DNA of 40,387 nucleotides from Shigella phage SFPH2: sequence record MH464253, one strand, 5' to 3'. Position 1 is the stretch's first letter; every line of letters starts with the position of its first letter. The position numbers and the translations under genes are program-made. Shown here piece by piece: positions 2,424-40,387 of this stretch. Below the pieces are notes generated by a model. It was not told the DNA's origin. It saw nothing but the letters and a program-made list of their open reading frames with translations, and ran no database searches.

Positions 2424-2454
2424 TACGTGTGTTTCCTTCTTGTGGTTAAGTGAC

Positions 2455-2495
2455 AATCAGTCAGGCCACCAGCATGGATGACCTGTAGTCTGGCA
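2455..2495 (-). promoter_or_regulatory. Conserved RNA hairpin A (candidate RNase III processing site)
   Basis: Minus-strand transcript CAGGUCAUCCA..UGGUGGCCUG, stem closed by G-U wobbles; member of a 5-copy family. Confidence 0.5.
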
Positions 2496-2515
2496 CTCGT
2501 CTACAGCGCTAGGCC

Positions 2516-3264: not shown

Positions 3265-3717
3265 TTACACCACCTCCCAGAACCGACCTTCAGCATCTTT
3301 CGTGAAGCATTCGCCCTTTGGTGCCTCGACTTGCTGGAATGCCCCGTTCAGACGTGTGGTCTTGTAGCCATCCAGACCTTTGCAGAACATCAGGCCAGCC
3401 GTGTGAGTCTGAGACTTGTAGACCATCACGCAGTCTTGCTCAAAGTCATTGCAGGCCAGCCGCGCAACGTTGATAGCCTGAGCTTTGGACTCACAGCGCA
3501 CACGATATGTTCTCTCCTCAGTGGCGACCTCTTGCCCTTCCTCGCGGTAGCATCCTGTAAGCCCAGTGCATTCGAGCACACCGTAGTAGTCTGGCTCAGC
3601 TTGTAGCAGTGCCTTAAGGTCTAACTGACGGCCCATGTTCACTATGTCTGACAGTCCAGCACGAGCGGCTGACACGAGCACATAGAAGACGTTAGCTGGT
3701 TCGTTAGTGTAAATCAT
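3265..3717 (-). CDS. gp0.3: S-adenosyl-L-methionine hydrolase/lyase (T3 gene 0.3-type SAMase, anti-restriction)
   Basis: MIYTNEPANVFYVLVSA...TGCYRE...VRC.SKAQAINVARLACN..EQDCVMVYKSQTHTAGL matches T3 SAMase as recalled, near-identical length (150 aa). Confidence 0.88.
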   Translation of the reverse strand: MIYTNEPANVFYVLVSAARAGLSDIVNMGRQLDLKALLQAEPDYYGVLECTGLTGCYREEGQEVATEERTYRVRCESKAQAINVARLACNDFEQDCVMVYKSQTHTAGLMFCKGLDGYKTTRLNGAFQQVEAPKGECFTKDAEGRFWEVV

Positions 3718-3931
3718 GATGTGTATCCTTTAAGTGTGAGTGATTATCATAAAGAGACCTGAGGCGCTCATCTTGAGCCTGACCCGCAGTAGCCAACAAG
3801 TCTCTTGAGTTAATCGCTTACTATCGGCGCACATTAAGAGTTATCCAGATTGTTAAAGAGCATTCGCTTGGCTGTCGTCGCCTCGCTAGCCTGTTTCAGT
3901 GTTAGGCTTCACTGTCGTTTCGATGTGGTTC

Positions 3932-3961
3932 ATACTACTTTAAGTCGTTACTGCTTGTCAA
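3932..3961 (-). promoter_or_regulatory. Candidate host sigma70 promoter (TTGACA-N18-TAGTAT), rightward/sense
   Basis: Hexamers read on minus strand upstream of the early genes. Confidence 0.3.
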
Positions 3962-4076
3962 CTACTTTCTTTCTGTCGGTTGCCTGTTTTTCGTATGTCT
4001 TACAGGCTGACTACTTAACCGGACCGACCCGGCGTCTTCACTATCCGGTTGTTGCCGTGTCGTGTTGACGGAAGCT

Positions 4077-4105
4077 ATTAAACCAAAAGTCAGACCTACT
4101 GTCAA
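4077..4105 (-). promoter_or_regulatory. Candidate host sigma70 early promoter (TTGACA-N17-TTTAAT), rightward/sense
   Basis: Perfect -35 and 17-bp spacer on minus strand, ~360 bp upstream of SAMase. Confidence 0.4.
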
Positions 4106-4168
4106 CAACTATTTATCATGGTAATTTATACAGTAGTCCAATGACTATATAATAACGACTACAGATGA

Positions 4169-4196
4169 TTGACTTTAAGTCTGGACTGTGGATAAT
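4169..4196 (+). promoter_or_regulatory. Candidate sigma70 promoter on the antisense strand (TTGACT-N16-GATAAT)
   Basis: TTGACTttaagtctggactgtgGATAAT on plus strand; closely resembles T7 A1 core (TTGACTtaaagtct...GATACT) but points opposite to all genes. Confidence 0.4.
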
Positions 4197-4199
4197 GAG

Positions 4200-4852
4200 A
4201 GTCCAGTTAGCAAGACACTAACTAATAACCCTAGTCAGCTATGGTCTCTGACTGCTAAACGGACCGGATGTGATAACCTGTGAGTCTAGACCTTAGGACT
4301 CTGATAAACTGAAGGTCGACATGGTGTCTATTGACTGTAGGTAGTGAGACTGTAGGTAGTCCCGTTACCAATGGATTGACTGTAGGTAGTGAGACTGAAG
4401 GTGATGACTCTAGGCTGATACAGATAGCGACTCAGGGACACAACATATAGTCCCGACCAATCGTCCCTACCACAAGATATAGGCCCTATCGGTCCAGACT
4501 TCGGGTCGACTTCGGGTCAAAGACTTGAGGTTTAGACCTTCGGTCTAGGGGTAGGGCCTTTGGTCGAGACTTAAAGAGGGCCTATGGGGAGACTTGAGGT
4601 TCTTGAACTGTGAGATGTGGTCTCAAACTTTTGGTCCAAAACTCATCGTCCCTACTGTAGGCCTCAGCCACTGTAGGTCAAGGACCGTAGGTCAGGCGAC
4701 ACTAGGGTAGACCAGTGAGTAGGATGACCCTAAGTGAGCTTCTCTTAAGGTGTTACCTAAAGTCCTTGACTACAGTAGCTAAGGTCAGTAGAGTAGCGTC
4801 AGCTATGAACTGACCTTAGGTCCGTCTTTCGTTGATTGTTACCATGATGGCG
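4200..4852. repeat. Repeat-rich non-coding terminal region (expected location of physical genome ends / terminal repeat / concatemer junction)
   Basis: No ORF of 60 codons or more on the coding strand; 22-bp perfect direct repeat TTGACTGTAGGTAGTGAGACTG at 4331-4352 and 4376-4397; recurring CTGTAGG, ATCGTCCCTAC, AGACTTGAGG, CTTCGGGTC motifs. Confidence 0.6.
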
Positions 4853-5011
4853 TTAATGACACTCAGACACCAGAGTACATACGAGAGTCTCGACCCACCC
4901 GACCCACTGACTTCCAGCAGTAACGCCAGCAGCAAGTAGAACAGCAGCAAGAAACCTGTATGTAGCTCTATTGGTCGCCAGAGCTTTAAGAACAGCTTTG
5001 GTCTTACCCAT
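4853..5011 (-). CDS. gp19.5: gp19.5-like small protein (52 aa)
   Basis: MGKTKAVLKALATNRATYRFLAAVLLAAGV... resembles T7 gp19.5 (..RVTYRFLVVLCAALGY..); AGGAGGT SD 7 nt upstream; lies downstream of the phiOR-position promoter. Confidence 0.65.
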   Translation of the reverse strand: MGKTKAVLKALATNRATYRFLAAVLLAAGVTAGSQWVGWVETLVCTLVSECH

Positions 5012-5185
5012 GCTACATACCTCCTGTCGCTTAGGGTCTACTTAAGTTATGAGGGTGTGATGATTACAATCACCCTCTCCATCGGTGCTAACCTTAGGTA
5101 AGAACTAAGGAGTCTGCCTCCTAAGGTCTTGCATAAAGTGTGCATATGCTTATTCATTGAGTCTTTACTATAAGTAACCGGGGGT

Positions 5186-5208
5186 CTTCCCTATAGTGAT
5201 AGTTAAGT
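5186..5208 (-). promoter_or_regulatory. Phage RNAP promoter (phiOR position): ACTTAACTATCACTATAGGGAAG
   Basis: Full consensus match between terminase large subunit and gene 19.5. Confidence 0.85.
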
Positions 5209-5301
5209 CCCTTTCCCTTTAGAATCATTAAATTACGAGAGATACCTAACGCACTACTTACTGCTTATACATGCAGATTTCATGCGTAGGTATTCATTAG
5301 G

Positions 5302-7065
5302 TTAGTGGAACTTGACGTAGGACCCTAAGCCTAAGTCATCATCTGTATTGAACTGGACCCGGACCCCATTGTCCCAATAGTCAGTCTCGATGGACTTAAA
5401 GCCTTTCCGAGGGTCTTCCATCTGTTCCTCAAGCCACTCTTCTGTTACTTCACGCTGTCCCTTGACGGCATCCTTCGCCATAGACTCTACGAAGAACTGT
5501 ACACCGATAGCCAGAGCATCAAGTCGGTCGTCATGAGCCAAGGCTCCACGTTCACGGCTGATACGGGTCATCTGGTAGAACAGAGAGTAGATAGGGTTAC
5601 GGACACCATCCTTATCGGCAGCAGTCTGGTAGTCAGACACAATGGTCGAGGAGTTCACGATGAGTCGGTGAGACCCCATGATAGGCTCCAGAACGTCGCA
5701 GATGCGCAGCTCCTTCTGACCCTTACTCTTGACCTCGGTAACTGCTGCCGGGTGAATACGGGCCGCTACAGGCTTGAAGAGTTCGAGATACATACCGTCA
5801 CCGAAGTTACCTTCAATCACGTACTCGTTGACCTTCCACTTACGACCAATCTTAGCCAGAGCCTCCAGCGTAGAGTCCTCATAGCCACCACGCATACCAC
5901 CCGCTTCCATCACGAAGATGTAGCCGTTGAGCTGGTACAGAACCGCATACCCGGTCTCATCCTTACCTCGACCACTTGGGTCAATGACCAGAATCTTCTG
6001 GGTGTACGAACTGAAGGCAGAACCTACAGTCTGATACGTATGGTAGGAATCGCCCATGAGTCCCACGTTAGGAACGTCATCACGCTTGTTCTGAAGGTTC
6101 GGCAGCCACTGGTATACCATAGGGCTAGACTCAGGGTCCAAGTCCGCTACGATAAGGTCACGCAGCTTCAGAGGGTATTTCTCGGCGTCCCCTAGGTTGG
6201 GGTTCAGCATGAACTGTAGGGCGAAGCCCGCCTTACCATAAGACAGCTCACGCTCCTTCAGGTCCTCATCGTCGAAGCGAACCTCATCGGTCGGTCTCCA
6301 GTAGTATCCCTCAGGGTCAGACTCCAGCTCGGCCTGAAGCATAGGAGCCAGACGGTCTCCGTAAGACTTCCAGTCCTTCTCATCACGTGGGTAGCGGGCA
6401 GGCCAGATGGTAGTTGAGTAACCACGACCCTCAAGCTGTCGATACAGGGTCATCTCGGTCTGAGGAGTACCCAGATAGATAACCGTACCACCCGGCTTCA
6501 GGATTGCGTCGAACTCTTTCACCAGCTCTGACAGTCTGTCACGTGCCGCCTGAGTAGCGGAGTTACCGGGGACCTCTACGTCATCGGCAATCAGGATGTC
6601 AGCACGGCTACCAGTTAACTGACCAGTGATACCAACGGACTTAACCGAGGGAGAGTGGTCAGGCTTGGCAGGCCCTACGTCAAAGCTGATTACTGCGTCT
6701 CGCTGCCCCTGCTTAGGCTTCAACTCTTGGAGCTGAGGCATGAGGTCGATGATACGCTTGATGAAGATTGAGTTCGCATCGGCTCGTTCCTTTGAGGCCG
6801 ACACAATCATGAACTTCAAGTCCGGGTTATTCCATAGCTTCCAGACCACGAAGGCACACGTAATGAAGGACTTCCCGATACCACGGAATGCCTGCAAGAT
6901 GAAGCGCCTGTTGTCCCCAGCCGATAGCTTCTTCGCCATGTCAATCTGACAGCGAGTCGGAACAGGAAGTGACAGAGCTTTCCACAGAACGAACAGGAAG
7001 AACACGAAGTCTGACTTCATACGGGCAGTCATAAGCGCCTGACGCGCTGCTAAGTCTTGACTCAA
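5302..7065 (-). CDS. gp19: Terminase large subunit (DNA maturase B)
   Basis: 587 aa; Walker A-like GIGKS, colinear with T7 gp19 (586 aa). Confidence 0.95.
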
Positions 7066-7511: not shown

Positions 7512-7560
7512 AGTTGCCCTCCTGTTTTAAAAGAATTCACGTAGAGTCACCTACGTTAGT

Positions 7561-7615
7561 GTTAATCATGAAGGCCACCCACTACATGTAGTAGATGACC
7601 TTGAGTCTAACACTT
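7561..7615 (-). promoter_or_regulatory. Conserved RNA hairpin C (R18.5-position candidate RNase III site)
   Basis: GGUCAUCUACUAC-AU-GUAGUGGGUGGCC, 13-bp stem with three G-U wobbles; flanks AGACUCAAGG / CCUUCAUGAUUAAC. Confidence 0.55.
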
Positions 7616-37764: not shown

Positions 37765-37792
37765 GGTGTAGCTCCTGAGTGAATTGGTTAGG

Positions 37793-37838
37793 GTTAATCA
37801 TGAAGGCCACGACTTTGAGTCATGACCTTGAGTCTAAT
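37793..37838 (-). promoter_or_regulatory. Conserved RNA hairpin D (R1.1-position candidate RNase III site) at 5' end of phi1.1 transcript
   Basis: AAGGUCAUGACU-caa-AGUCGUGGCCUU: 12-bp stem with two G-U wobbles, 3-nt loop. Confidence 0.55.
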
Positions 37839-38614: not shown

Positions 38615-40387
38615 TTAGGCGAATGCAAAGTCAGATAGCAGAATGTCTTCGATGTTCAGTTTACCGCGCTTCGGCAGCTCAGGCAATTTGTCGCGCTGGC
38701 TCTCATGAAGCTGGTCCTCGAACTGCTCGTAGAAGTCTTGCAGAACATCGTTGTCTCGGTAGGTCTCGACCATCGTCTCACGGACTCCCTTGAACAGGAA
38801 CTCAGCGTCTGCCGGGATGGTCCCAAAGCTGTCGTGAATCACCGCGAAGGACATCACGCCATACTTGCGGTGGGTATGGACTACAGTCTTCCTCAGGTGA
38901 CTGCCATCCTGTGAGTGTACAAAGTTAGGGCTGATACCGGACTCCTGCTTGTGCTTGTCCAGCTCTTTCTTCGACCCTTTGTTGACTGTCGGTTGCAGGT
39001 TGAACGACCCAAGGAACAGGAGGTTCAGCCGTGTGGTGTCTTTCTTGCGGTATTCCTGCCAGACCGGGAACCCATCAGGTGTTACCCAGTGTACCGGAAG
39101 GCAAGGCTTCAGGATTTCGCCAGTCTTCTTGTCCTTCACTTCAGCAGCCAGTAGCTTGGCAGCGCCTTGAAGCCACTTCATCGCGTCAACCGCAGCAACT
39201 ACGGTCACACTCACGGCGTCCCATATCATCTTAGCCATGAAGCGAGACGCTTGGCTTGGGTCGGTGAACATTGCGCCTTTACCGCTGTCAATCGCTGGCA
39301 TCACGGTGTCCTCAAACACTTGGTCCGCGAACCCGTATTCTTTCGACCCGTAGGCCAGAGTCATGACCGAGCGTTTAGTGACCGAGCGTGACATCCCGTA
39401 GGTCAGCCACTGTCGAGCCAGCTCACGGGTCCCAAGGACCAGACGCTCAGTAATCTCGCCTGTCTTCTTGTCCTCAAAGGTCTTCATTTCGTTGTCGCTC
39501 CCGTTGACCAGCAGTTCCTTGAGCTGTTCTTCCACCCGGTCGGACACAATGCGGTAGATGTCTTGGACCTTCCCGCTTGGCGTCAGGTTTACCGCATGTC
39601 CACCAACGTGGTCACGGAGCATAGCGCTGAAGTGCTGAATCCCGGAGCAGGACCCATCGAACGCGATAGGCAGTGAGCAGGAGTAACTCAGCCCGTGGTG
39701 CATGACTCCAGCATACTCAAAGCAGAACGCTAGGAAGCAGAACGGAGAGTCTAACCGGCCCCACCAATCAATGCTGTCCATCGGATTCTTTGCTGCTGAG
39801 AGGATGTTGTCGTGGTTGTCTTCGACCCACTTGATGCGCTCCTCAAAGGTGACTTTATCGACACCCGCGCAGTTTGCACCATGTACCTTCAGCCATTTGA
39901 AGCCGTCCGCACCGATTGGTTTACCGACCGCCAGAGTCAGCAGGCCCTTCTGCATATCGTTGCCTTGAGGGTTGAACATCGGGACAGCGTACACTCGGCC
40001 CCGCCAGTCCATGTTGTACGGGAACCAGATGGCCTTAAACTGAGAGAACTTGTTAGCCTGTGAGACGATGAAGCTCAGGGACAAGCGGCGCGACTGTCGG
40101 GCCTTCTCGCGTCGATAGATGCCAGCCGCAGACTTCTTCCAAGCCTTAAGCTCCTCCTCGGTCTCACCCGCATAGTCTTCAGGCTTCAGTGGCTCCATCT
40201 GAGGGATGTCAGCGATAGGCGTGTTATTCAGCTTCTCGACCATGTTCACCACTTCCAGCACCTTCTTGTTTACCTTCCAAGGAGTCTGCTGAATGATGTT
40301 CACTGCCTCTACCACTTCAGGCATGTACACGTCTTCGTAGCGCTGGACCGCAGCCTTAGACCCTAAGCGAATCAGTGGTAGAGGTCT
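38615..40387 (-). CDS. gp1: DNA-directed RNA polymerase, C-terminal part (continuation of 909..1 across the circular junction)
   Basis: Frame open to window edge; ...RYEDVYMPEV, FPYNMDWRGRVYAV.MFNPQGNDM.KGLLTLA, SPFCFLAFCFEYAGV.HHGLSY, GIQHFSAMLRD, SVMTLAYGSKE, HDSFGT, ends DFAFA as T7 RNAP. Confidence 0.97.
   Translation of the reverse strand, partial: RPLPLIRLGSKAAVQRYEDVYMPEVVEAVNIIQQTPWKVNKKVLEVVNMVEKLNNTPIADIPQMEPLKPEDYAGETEEELKAWKKSAAGIYRREKARQSRRLSLSFIVSQANKFSQFKAIWFPYNMDWRGRVYAVPMFNPQGNDMQKGLLTLAVGKPIGADGFKWLKVHGANCAGVDKVTFEERIKWVEDNHDNILSAAKNPMDSIDWWGRLDSPFCFLAFCFEYAGVMHHGLSYSCSLPIAFDGSCSGIQHFSAMLRDHVGGHAVNLTPSGKVQDIYRIVSDRVEEQLKELLVNGSDNEMKTFEDKKTGEITERLVLGTRELARQWLTYGMSRSVTKRSVMTLAYGSKEYGFADQVFEDTVMPAIDSGKGAMFTDPSQASRFMAKMIWDAVSVTVVAAVDAMKWLQGAAKLLAAEVKDKKTGEILKPCLPVHWVTPDGFPVWQEYRKKDTTRLNLLFLGSFNLQPTVNKGSKKELDKHKQESGISPNFVHSQDGSHLRKTVVHTHRKYGVMSFAVIHDSFGTIPADAEFLFKGVRETMVETYRDNDVLQDFYEQFEDQLHESQRDKLPELPKRGKLNIEDILLSDFAFA

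What the first reader, a model, noticed from the sequence alone, without database searches (positions are those of the whole stretch)
4200..4852. Repeat-dense non-coding block likely containing the physical genome ends
Between gene 19.5 and the early promoters there is about 650 bp without ORFs, packed with short direct repeats: a 22-bp perfect repeat TTGACTGTAGGTAGTGAGACTG at 4331-4352 and 4376-4397, a third CTGTAGGTAGT copy at 4350-4360, ATCGTCCCTAC at about 4460 and 4645, AGACTTGAGG at 4523 and 4591, and a tandem CTTCGGGTC(G/A)A at 4500-4520. T7-like phages have such arrays flanking the terminal repeat, where they are implicated in concatemer processing.
Basis: partly seen in the sequence, partly recalled or inferred. 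Interest (0 to 1): 0.45.

Follow-up and report, generated by a model that had tools for sequence, protein, structure and literature searches.

The report
T7-type phage genome-end (concatemer junction) region
This repeat-rich gap is the well-known junction where a T7-like phage cuts its replicated DNA into genome units: it holds one collapsed copy of a 190-bp terminal repeat and its flanking short-repeat arrays, so it is real but ordinary.

Summary

The window is a complete Kayfunavirus (K1F-like, T7 group) genome. It is reverse-complemented, opened inside the RNA polymerase gene, and carries a single collapsed copy of the direct terminal repeat.

By alignment to relatives deposited with exact terminal repeats, the repeat is 4615->4426 (minus strand, 190 bp). 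Two of these relatives, SH4 and SH5, had their ends mapped by run-off sequencing. The left end reads TCTCACAGTTCAAG. The right end reads GAGTCGCT and is followed by ATCTGTA, the counterpart of the T7 junction pause signal ATCTGTT.

The repeats are copies of one strand-specific motif, CCNNNRGTC, about 13-fold enriched. It corresponds to T7's CCTAAAG arrays. The motif array recurs in every relative examined, but copy number and variant differ.

Left of the repeat lie two conserved inverted repeats able to form hairpins. A phiOR-like phage promoter lies upstream of gene 19.5. No phiOL-like promoter is present.

The function of the arrays remains inferred. The termini of this particular phage were not mapped.

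The parts
5183..5213 (-). Phage RNA polymerase promoter, positional equivalent of T7/T3 phiOR. It lies upstream of gene 19.5 and would drive transcription through the junction.
   Evidence: It is one of 12 sense-strand sites matching the window's own promoter consensus ACTAAACTATCACTATAGGRA. PWM score 37.8; the next non-promoter site scores 11.7 or less. T7 and T3 records annotate phiOR at the same relative position.
4853..5011 (-). Gene 19.5 homologue (52 aa), the last gene before the right genome end. It forms the upper boundary of the block.
   Evidence: ORF list. The homologous 159-nt CDS is annotated gp19.5 in IMM-002 and as a hypothetical protein in Ro45lw, SH4 and SH5 at the same position. 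No Pfam family.
4616..4852 (-). Right-flank region (T7 'SRR' equivalent), between the gene 19.5 stop and the left boundary of the terminal repeat. It contains motif copies in both orientations and two inverted repeats.
   Evidence: Aligns with the segment preceding the right-hand repeat in seven DTR-bearing records. Folds as single-stranded DNA better than all 200 shuffles, z = -3.45.
4779..4819 (-). Inverted repeat HP1: arms CTAAGGTCAGT / ACTGACCTTAG with a 19-nt loop.
   Evidence: the repeat finder I8: 11 nt, 100% complementary. The 10-bp stem is invariant in 18 of 18 relatives while the loop occurs in three different versions.
4667..4779 (-). Inverted repeat HP2: arms 4779-4755 (GCTACTGTAGTCAAGGACTTTAGGT) and 4692-4667 (ACCTACGGTCCTTGACCTACAGTGGC), about 24 pairs.
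   Evidence: Predicted in the MFE and centroid folds and in the consensus fold of 18 sequences. Arms are kept in 17 of 18, while the central segment is replaced in L022 and L028. Almost no covariation is seen because the arms are invariant.
4426..4615 (-). Direct terminal repeat, 190 bp, as a single collapsed copy. The predicted left genome end is at 4615 (TCTCACAGTTCAAG...) and the predicted right genome end at 4426 (...GAGTCGCT).
   Evidence: Homology to exact DTRs of Ro45lw, IMM-002, MBBL139, K1F and SH4/SH5, and to T7/T3 boundary motifs. Four IMG/VR contigs end exactly at the homologue of 4426. SH4/SH5 ends were mapped experimentally.
4419..4425 (-). ATCTGTA immediately after the right boundary of the repeat. 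It is the counterpart of the T7 concatemer-junction class II pause/termination signal ATCTGTT, matching 6 of 7 positions.
   Evidence: T7 and T3 have ATCTGTT at the identical position. All Kayfunavirus relatives have ATCTGTA. On the sense strand of the window, ATCTGTA occurs only here and at 4166. Role of the T7 signal.
4280..4425 (-). Left-flank array (T7 'SRL' equivalent): seven direct, same-strand copies of CCNNNRGT(C/T). These are CCTAGAGTC, CCTTCAGTC, CCTACAGTC x3, CCTTCAGTT and CCTAAGGTC, spaced 13-30 nt apart.
   Evidence: Motif list and enrichment. The array is present, with variable copy number, in all relatives examined.
4200..4279 (-). Conserved spacer without repeats, between the array and the early-promoter region. 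It contains no motif copies.
   Evidence: Motif counts are 0. It is well conserved in 6 of 7 aligned relatives.
4077..4105 (-). First host-type early promoter candidate (TTGACA, 17 nt, TTTAAT), just outside the block. It marks the lower boundary.
   Evidence: Read directly from the sequence. It was not reported by the consensus scan because of that tool's -10 rule. A second sense-strand site, TTGACA-18-TAGTAT at 3961-3932, was found by the scan. T7 and T3 annotate A1-A3 at the equivalent place.

Best explanation
The block is the concatemer junction of a Kayfunavirus (K1F-like, T7 group) genome. It appears here as one collapsed copy because the assembly was circularised, opened inside the RNA polymerase gene and reverse-complemented.

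Anatomy, in gene orientation (minus strand):
- phiOR-like phage promoter (5213-5183)
- gene 19.5 (5011-4853)
- right-flank region with two conserved inverted repeats (4852-4616)
- 190-bp terminal repeat (4615-4426)
- ATCTGTA pause-signal counterpart (4425-4419)
- left-flank array of seven CCNNNRGTC units (4425-4280)
- spacer (4279-4200)
- host-type early promoters

Proposed mechanism:
1. Replicated genomes recombine through the repeat into head-to-tail concatemers that hold one repeat per junction.
2. Phage RNA polymerase transcribing from the phiOR-like promoter crosses the junction and pauses at ATCTGTA at the right edge of the repeat.
3. The terminase-prohead complex (gp18/gp19) is recruited there. 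Cuts are made at the fixed positions 4616|4615 and 4426|4425.
4. The repeat is duplicated by extension synthesis so that each packaged genome carries it at both ends. The predicted virion DNA is 40,387 + 190 = 40,577 bp.

What is shown and what is inferred: the anatomy, the homology of both boundaries, the motif enrichment and the conservation are shown here. The order of events is taken from work on T7/T3. That the flanking arrays act as terminase or accessory-protein binding sites, and that the inverted repeats supply the hairpin intermediate, are inferences.
For: Identity of the window. 220 phage records match 3700-5300, best at 96% identity, and they are Kayfunavirus and close relatives. 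The end-to-start junction of the window aligns in one piece, 600 of 600 nt, inside the RNA polymerase gene of 151 records. The flanking genes are a T7-type large terminase (PF22530, 1.4e-37) and a SAM lyase (PF23780, 1.2e-39).

Boundaries. Exact DTRs of 178-191 bp in six records start at TCTCACAGTTCAAG and end at GAGTC(T/C)C(T), followed by ATCTGTAT. These positions align to window 4615 and 4426. SH4/SH5 ends were mapped by run-off sequencing and Pisces by PhageTerm. Four IMG/VR contigs end exactly at the homologue of 4426. T7 and T3 share CCAnAAAAnnTGA...A|TCTCAYAGT on the left and ...CCCT|ATCTGTT on the right.

Repeats. Sense-strand CCNNNRGTC occurs 14 times against 1.1 expected (12.7-fold, Poisson P = 1.6e-11), with 5 on the antisense strand. 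The array is present in all 17 relatives examined; T7 and T3 carry CCTAAAG arrays instead.

Promoter.

Inverted repeats. The T7 and T3 right-flank regions also fold better than shuffles, z = -2.3 and -2.4.

Mechanism in T7/T3. DTRs are generated by extension synthesis at staggered nicks (PMC5557969). There is one repeat per junction and a second is synthesised (PMC10438801). [quoted passage not shown] The class II signal ATCTGTT lies at the junction. A hairpin end was proposed as a processing intermediate (title of Chung et al. 1990, in the reference list read).
Against: - No sequencing reads or virion DNA were available for this phage, so its termini are inferred by homology only. A second TGTGTCCCT 8 nt upstream would give a 182-bp repeat ending at 4434 if cutting followed the T7/T3 motif literally.
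- The pause motif differs from the T7 signal at position 7 (A instead of T). For T7 RNA polymerase any base change is reported to abolish the signal. Whether this phage's polymerase pauses at ATCTGTA is untested.
- No phiOL-like promoter is present, so the left side differs from T7 and T3.
- No protein has been shown to bind the arrays in any T7-group phage, to my knowledge.
- The inverted repeats show almost no covariation: 3 of 48 pairs, with a covariation term of +0.64. A structural role cannot be separated from conservation of the sequence itself.
Confidence: 0.9

Rival explanations
1. The repeat arrays are iterons of a replication origin, comparable to the secondary origins that T7 has near its ends, and not packaging or processing elements.
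For: There are direct repeats at 13-16 nt spacing in a non-coding region. From my own knowledge, T7 secondary origins are associated with phiOL and phiOR. A phiOR-like promoter lies 330 bp upstream of the block.
Against: No phage promoter lies within or just downstream of the left-flank array; the best PWM score is -5.2 against 27-40 for real sites. The region is not AT-rich, with GC 0.45-0.52 against 0.52 for the genome. No initiator protein of the iteron-binding type is known in the T7 group. The arrays bracket the mapped cut sites precisely in all relatives.
Confidence: 0.05
2. The physical ends are not in this block. Either the phage packages by headful (circularly permuted) or the window's own ends are the true termini.
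For: The window carries no terminal duplication, and no read data exist for this genome.
Against: The window ends join seamlessly inside the RNA polymerase gene of 151 relatives. The large terminase is T7-type. Every relative deposited with DTRs has its ends at the homologues of 4615 and 4426, two of them mapped experimentally. Short-read assemblers routinely collapse such DTRs and open the circle arbitrarily.
Confidence: 0.03
3. The exact repeats are neutral slippage or duplication products in a non-coding spacer with no function of their own. Only the two cut sites and the repeat itself matter.
For: Copy number, spacing and motif variant of the array differ freely between close relatives. 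L018 has five tandem CCATAGGTC units at 16-nt period, L019 has three CCTCAAGTC units, and the window has a private 22-bp duplication. The 11-mer GTAGGGACGAT found upstream of both cut sites is not universal. From my own knowledge, T7 mutants deleted for gene 19.5 and part of the adjacent right-flank region were reported viable.
Against: The motif core (CCNNNRGTC), its strand and its position next to the repeat are retained in all Kayfunavirus relatives despite this turnover. The same arrangement, with a different core (CCTAAAG), is seen in T7 and T3. That pattern points to selection for an array as such. The HP1 and HP2 arms stay invariant while the sequence between them is replaced.
Confidence: 0.25

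Closest known systems
Terminal regions of Kayfunavirus phages with defined ends (Citrobacter phages SH4/SH5, Escherichia phages Ro45lw, IMM-002, Pisces, K1F)
   Same: The order is the same: gene 19.5, right flank with HP1/HP2, terminal repeat, ATCTGTAT, CCTACAGTC array, early promoters. Identity over the repeat region is 88-96%. Both boundary sequences are identical or nearly so. The repeat length matches at 190 bp (SH4/SH5 190-191, Ro45lw 190, Pisces 190).
   Different: The repeat is present only once here, because the assembly is collapsed and permuted. This phage has a private 22/23-bp duplication within the array and an exact 11-bp tandem, GACCCGAAGTC x2, inside the repeat. K1F and others have shorter repeats of 166-186 bp.
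Bacteriophage T7 concatemer junction (160-bp terminal repetition flanked by the SRL/SRR short-repeat arrays, phiOR and phiOL, and the class II CJ pause site)
   Same: The position is the same, between gene 19.5 and the A promoters. The cut-site contexts are homologous...TGAGnnnnnA|TCTCACAGT on the left and ...CT|ATCTGT on the right. Strand-specific 7-9 nt motif arrays lie inside and on both sides of the repeat. phiOR lies upstream of 19.5. The right flank is hairpin-prone.
   Different: The repeat is 190 bp rather than 160 bp. The array core is CCTACAGTC rather than CCTAAAG. The pause motif is ATCTGTA rather than ATCTGTT. There is no phiOL. The inverted repeats are not sequence-homologous to those of T7.
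Bacteriophage T3 terminal region (231-bp repeat)
   Same: The left end is nearly identical (TCTCATAGTTCAAGAACC against TCTCACAGTTCAAGAACC). The first early gene is a SAM lyase in both. The overall layout is the same.
   Different: The T3 repeat is 41 bp longer. T3 has phiOL and an annotated leftward A0 promoter inside the repeat. Its array motifs are CCTAAAG and CCTGTAG.

Membership tests
T7-group (Studiervirinae) concatemer junction / short exact direct terminal repeat region | Lies between the last late gene (19.5, downstream of terminase gene 19) and the host-type early promoters and gene 0.3 | tested here: met
   gp19-type terminase at 7065-5302, the 19.5 homologue at 5011-4853, sigma-70-like promoters below 4106, and a SAM lyase gene at 3717-3265.
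T7-group (Studiervirinae) concatemer junction / short exact direct terminal repeat region | Boundary sequences homologous to those of phages whose ends were mapped | tested here: met
   The left boundary ...GAGACCACA|TCTCACAGTTC and the right boundary ...GAGTCGCT|ATCTGTATCAG align to the DTR edges of SH4/SH5 (run-off sequencing), Ro45lw, IMM-002, MBBL139, K1F, T7 and T3.
T7-group (Studiervirinae) concatemer junction / short exact direct terminal repeat region | The segment is present at both ends of virion DNA, seen as doubled coverage and read-start peaks | not testable with these tools
   No reads or virion DNA were available. The window holds one copy only and has no terminal overlap.
T7-group (Studiervirinae) concatemer junction / short exact direct terminal repeat region | Arrays of a short strand-specific motif within and flanking the repeat (SRL/SRR type) | tested here: met
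   CCNNNRGTC is 12.7-fold enriched on the sense strand. Sense-strand CCNNNRGT(C/T) counts are 3 in the right flank, 6 in the repeat and 7 in the left-flank array. The array is present in all relatives examined, and T7/T3 have CCTAAAG arrays.
T7-group (Studiervirinae) concatemer junction / short exact direct terminal repeat region | Phage RNA polymerase promoter (phiOR) upstream of gene 19.5, directing transcription across the junction | tested here: met
   PWM score 37.8 at 5213-5183.
T7-group (Studiervirinae) concatemer junction / short exact direct terminal repeat region | Class II pause signal ATCTGTT at the right edge of the repeat | tested here: inconclusive
   ATCTGTA (6 of 7 positions), preceded by T, sits at exactly the homologous position and is conserved in all Kayfunavirus relatives. 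T7 RNA polymerase is reported to tolerate no change in the motif. Recognition by this phage's polymerase is untested.
T7/T3 left-end layout | Phage promoter phiOL between the repeat and promoter A1 | tested here: not met
   The best PWM score in 4430-4050 is -5.2, against 27-40 for the 12 real promoters.
Genus Kayfunavirus | High nucleotide identity and synteny with K1F-like phages | tested here: met
   Best hits reach 96% identity over 1.6 kb. The matching records whose taxonomy was retrieved (Ro45lw, K1F, IMM-002, SH4/SH5, MBBL139) are classified as Kayfunavirus. Genome-wide identity was not computed.

The most novel reading that the evidence does not exclude
The strand-specific CCNNNRGTC arrays, together with the two invariant inverted repeats left of the repeat, could form a functional loading and processing platform. 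In this reading the arrays would be multi-site binding targets for the small terminase subunit or another phage protein, and the inverted repeats would extrude as the hairpin that primes duplication of the terminal repeat. The rapid turnover of units between close relatives would then reflect co-evolution with that protein. The function of these arrays has, to my knowledge, never been established for any T7-group phage.
Probability: 0.3. Interest if true: 0.4.

Novelty: already known. Interest (0 to 1): 0.12.

Why it matters
The practical value is for annotation. The deposited orientation hides the true genome ends. The genome should be reverse-complemented, re-opened at 4615, and given a second 190-bp repeat, for a predicted length of 40,577 bp. 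Automatic 'hypothetical protein' calls inside the block, which several related records carry, should be avoided.

Biologically this is a textbook feature of T7-like phages. The only open question it touches is the old one of what the short-repeat arrays flanking T7-group terminal repeats actually do. The comparison of about 20 Kayfunavirus junctions made here gives a clean set of natural variants for testing that. It shows conserved motif, strand and position with free copy-number turnover, and invariant hairpin arms around replaceable loops.

Tried and rejected
- A terminase recognition box. The exact 11-mer GTAGGGACGAT lies 29 nt upstream of the left cut and 34 nt upstream of the right cut, which looked like a repeated recognition element. 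Across 19 junctions, GACGAT is missing at the left site in six phages (L018, L023, L028, L030, L031, L035) and at the right site in two (L019, L035), with no co-variation. I rejected it as an essential element.
- A phiOL-like promoter. A PWM scan of 4430-4050 found none.
- Structured RNA. Rfam at E<=1 found nothing in 3600-5400.
- Covariation support for HP1 and HP2. The arms are invariant, so the test is uninformative: 3 of 48 pairs show changes on both sides, and the covariation term is +0.64.
- Folding of the repeat and the left-flank array as single-stranded DNA. Neither is better than shuffles, z = -1.2 and +0.5.
- Primary literature. The T7 packaging papers (Chung and Hinkle 1990 I-III, Dunn and Studier 1983) are not held in the library. 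Statements about pacB, SRL/SRR naming and the position of the hairpin rest on my own knowledge and on citing papers.
- A terminal overlap at the window ends. None of 10-399 nt was found.

Full report
**1. The observation**

- The 22-mer TTGACTGTAGGTAGTGAGACTG is at 4331 and 4376. It extends to 23 nt exact.
- A third CTGTAGGTAGT is at 4350.
- ATCGTCCCTAC is at 4460 and 4645, and nowhere else in the window.
- AGACTTGAGG is at 4521 and 4590.
- There is an exact 11-bp tandem at 4497-4518.

The block is exceptional within the window. Of 398 overlapping 653-bp blocks, it ranks first for bases covered by repeated 8-mers and 9-mers. None of 1000 dinucleotide-preserving shuffles reaches its repeat coverage or its longest repeat, which is 23 nt against a shuffle maximum of 14. 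Only mechanical ORFs of 31-39 aa overlap it, and Rfam finds nothing.

**2. What the window is**

Genes run on the minus strand. Flanking the block are these features:
- a T7-type large terminase gene (7065-5302; PF22530, 1.4e-37);
- a 52-aa gene 19.5 homologue (5011-4853);
- on the other side, sigma-70-like promoters and a SAM lyase gene (3717-3265; PF23780, 1.2e-39).

The region 3700-5300 matches 220 phage records, the best at 96% identity. These are Kayfunavirus (K1F-like Studiervirinae) and close relatives.

Joining the last 300 nt of the window to its first 300 nt gives a sequence that aligns in one piece, 600 of 600 nt, inside the RNA polymerase gene of 151 records. The window has no terminal overlap. 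It is therefore a complete genome that was circularised by the assembler, opened arbitrarily and reverse-complemented, with one copy of whatever terminal repeat the virion DNA carries. This behaviour of assemblers with T7-like phages is documented (PMC3350473; PMC10438801; PMC5557969).

**3. Where the ends are**

Six GenBank records carry exact direct terminal repeats: Ro45lw 190 bp, IMM-002 189, MBBL139 190, K1F 178, and SH4 and SH5 191.
- All start with TCTCACAGTTCAAGAACC, preceded in the concatemer by ...GAGTTTTGGACCAAAAGTTTGAGACCACA.
- All end with ...GAGTC(T/C)C(T), followed by ATCTGTAT.

In the alignment these edges fall at window 4615 and 4426, which gives a 190-bp repeat.

The SH4/SH5 ends were determined by primer run-off sequencing on virion DNA (PMC4925675). 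The 190-bp repeat of Pisces was called by PhageTerm. Four IMG/VR contigs also end exactly at the homologue of 4426.

The same boundary logic holds in T7 and T3.
- T7: ...TCTGAGTGACTA|TCTCACAGTG and ...GTGTCCCT|ATCTGTTACAG.
- T3: ...TCTGAATGGGTA|TCTCATAGTT and ...GTGTCCCT|ATCTGTTAGCC.

Among 18 further relatives, the distance from the left end to ATCTGTA ranges from 166 to 191 bp.

One residual ambiguity remains. The window reads TGTGTCCCT GAGTCGCT|ATCTGTA. A cut after the first octamer would give a 182-bp repeat. The alignment to the mapped SH4/SH5 ends favours 4426.

**4. What the repeats are**

- Sense-strand CCNNNRGTC occurs 14 times in the block against 1.1 expected from the rest of the genome (12.7-fold, P = 1.6e-11). 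There are 5 copies on the antisense strand.
- CCTACAG is about 50-fold enriched.

Copies lie in the right flank (4852-4616, in both orientations), throughout the repeat, and as a purely direct array of seven units at 13-30 nt spacing in the 146 nt after the repeat (4425-4280). The last 80 nt of the block (4279-4200) has none.

- The '22-bp perfect repeat' is a duplicated pair of units (CAGTCTCACTACCTACAGTCAA).
- The tandem is GACCCGAAGTC x2.
- AGACTTGAGG is the reverse complement of CCTCAAGTCT.

In the 170 nt after the repeat, all 17 relatives examined carry 4-10 such units, but with free turnover. L018 has five tandem CCATAGGTC units at a 16-nt period, and L019 has three CCTCAAGTC units. T7 and T3 carry CCTAAAG/CCTGTAG units at the same place.

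So the array, its strand and its position recur in every relative examined, while the particular exact repeats do not.

**5. Other functional elements**

(a) Phage promoters. Twelve sense-strand sites share ACTAAACTATCACTATAGGRA. One of them, at 5213-5183, sits where T7 and T3 have phiOR. No phiOL-like site exists between the repeat and the host promoters, where the best PWM score is -5.2. This differs from T7 and T3.

(b) The pause-signal counterpart. The heptamer right after the repeat, ATCTGTA (4425-4419), is the counterpart of ATCTGTT, the class II pause/termination signal of T7 RNA polymerase at the concatemer junction. In T7 the polymerase-lysozyme complex pauses there and interacts with gp18/gp19 to start maturation (PMC3276506 citing Zhang and Studier 2004). 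All Kayfunavirus relatives have A at position 7. On the window's sense strand, ATCTGTA occurs only here and at 4166.

(c) Inverted repeats in the right flank. This region folds as single-stranded DNA better than all 200 shuffles (z = -3.45). The repeat and the left-flank array do not (z = -1.2 and +0.5). Two inverted repeats account for the result.
- HP1 (4819-4779) has a 10-bp stem that is invariant in 18 of 18 sequences, while its loop occurs in three versions.
- HP2 (arms 4779-4755 and 4692-4667, about 24 pairs) is kept in 17 of 18, while the centre is replaced in two relatives.

Because the arms are invariant, covariation is uninformative. The T7 and T3 right flanks are also hairpin-prone (z = -2.3 and -2.4), although their sequences are not homologous to these. 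A hairpin end was proposed as a T7 processing intermediate (title of Chung, Nardone and Hinkle 1990, reference list read).

**6. Mechanism, with basis marked**

Shown here: the anatomy, the homology of both cut sites, the motif enrichment, the promoter and the conservation patterns.

Taken from T7/T3 literature:
- Concatemers hold one repeat per junction.
- Fixed-site nicks and extension synthesis regenerate the second copy.
- Transcription across the junction and pausing at its right edge recruit terminase.

Inferred:
- This phage's polymerase pauses at ATCTGTA.
- The arrays are protein-binding platforms.
- HP1 and HP2 provide the hairpin.

Predicted virion DNA is 40,577 bp, from TCTCACAG... 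(complement of 4615) to ...GAGTCGCT (4426), with the repeat at both ends.

**7. Rivals**

- An iteron origin is unlikely. There is no promoter in or after the array, the region is not AT-rich, and the arrays bracket the cut sites precisely.
- Ends lying elsewhere, or headful packaging, are contradicted.
- The arrays could be neutral slippage products. This cannot be excluded for individual units, but it fits poorly with the retention of motif, strand and position across Kayfunavirus, T7 and T3.

**8. Verdict**

The feature is the standard T7-group concatemer junction, nearly identical to those of published Kayfunavirus phages, so it is already known.

The useful outputs are the precise coordinates, the correction needed to the genome's orientation and ends, and a comparative picture of array turnover and invariant hairpin arms. 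That picture could guide an experimental test of what these arrays do.

Noticed in passing
window 1012, 5213, 10690, 17975, 22437, 23433, 26252, 30793, 33142, 35239, 36089, 37862 (5' ends, minus strand): There are twelve phage RNA polymerase promoters with the consensus ACTAAACTATCACTATAGGRA. This is closer to the T7/K11 type (CACTATAGG) than to T3. PWM scores are 27-40, and the next best site in the genome scores 11.7.
   Followed up: partly
window 4430-4050: There is no phiOL-like phage promoter between the terminal repeat and the host-type early promoters, unlike T7 and T3, where phiOL is annotated.
   Followed up: yes
window 4166-4160 (minus strand): A second sense-strand ATCTGTA lies 259 nt downstream of the one at the repeat edge, just before the early promoters. 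It is conserved in Ro45lw, IMM-002 and MBBL139 but not in SH4/SH5 or K1F. It could be a second pause site or chance.
   Followed up: partly
window 4125-4153 and 4169-4196 (plus strand): Two sigma-70-like sites (TTTATA-17-TATAAT and TTGACT-16-GATAAT, 10 of 12 matches each) point leftward in phage orientation, towards the genome end. They resemble the leftward A0 promoter annotated in T7 and T3.
   Followed up: no
window 4655-4645 and 4470-4460 (minus strand GTAGGGACGAT): An exact 11-mer lies 29 nt upstream of the left cut site and 34 nt upstream of the right cut site. A GACGAT core is common at both sites in relatives but is absent from several, with no co-variation, so it is probably not an essential recognition box.
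   Followed up: yes
window 40088-40387 joined to 1-300: The window ends are contiguous inside the RNA polymerase gene of 151 related records. The window is therefore a whole genome, circularly permuted and reverse-complemented, and lacks its second terminal repeat.
   Followed up: yes
L010 (PP328844.1, Escherichia phage 216Ecol046PP) 1-720; L025 and L034 locus ends: PP328844 begins with a repeat copy, then about 330 nt of unrelated sequence, then the right flank and the repeat again. The record is 41,264 bp. Two IMG/VR contigs end in tandem duplications inside the repeat. These look like assembly artefacts at collapsed terminal repeats.
   Followed up: no
OR786095.1 (L009/L013) and PQ520054.1: Records named 'Staphylococcus phage MBBL139' and 'Enterococcus phage IME_EF3' are Kayfunavirus sequences 89-96% identical to this enterobacterial phage. 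The host labels are probably wrong, or the sequences are contaminants.
   Followed up: no
window 2446-2498, 2885-2936, 3703-3726, 7555-7615, 37787-37837: Families of 16-24 nt direct repeats recur at several gene boundaries. Examples are GTTAGTGTTAATCATGAAGGCCAC and GATGACCTGTAGTCT / ATGACCTTGAGTCTAA. Some contain the same CCTNNAGTC-type motif on the sense strand as the terminal arrays.
   Followed up: no
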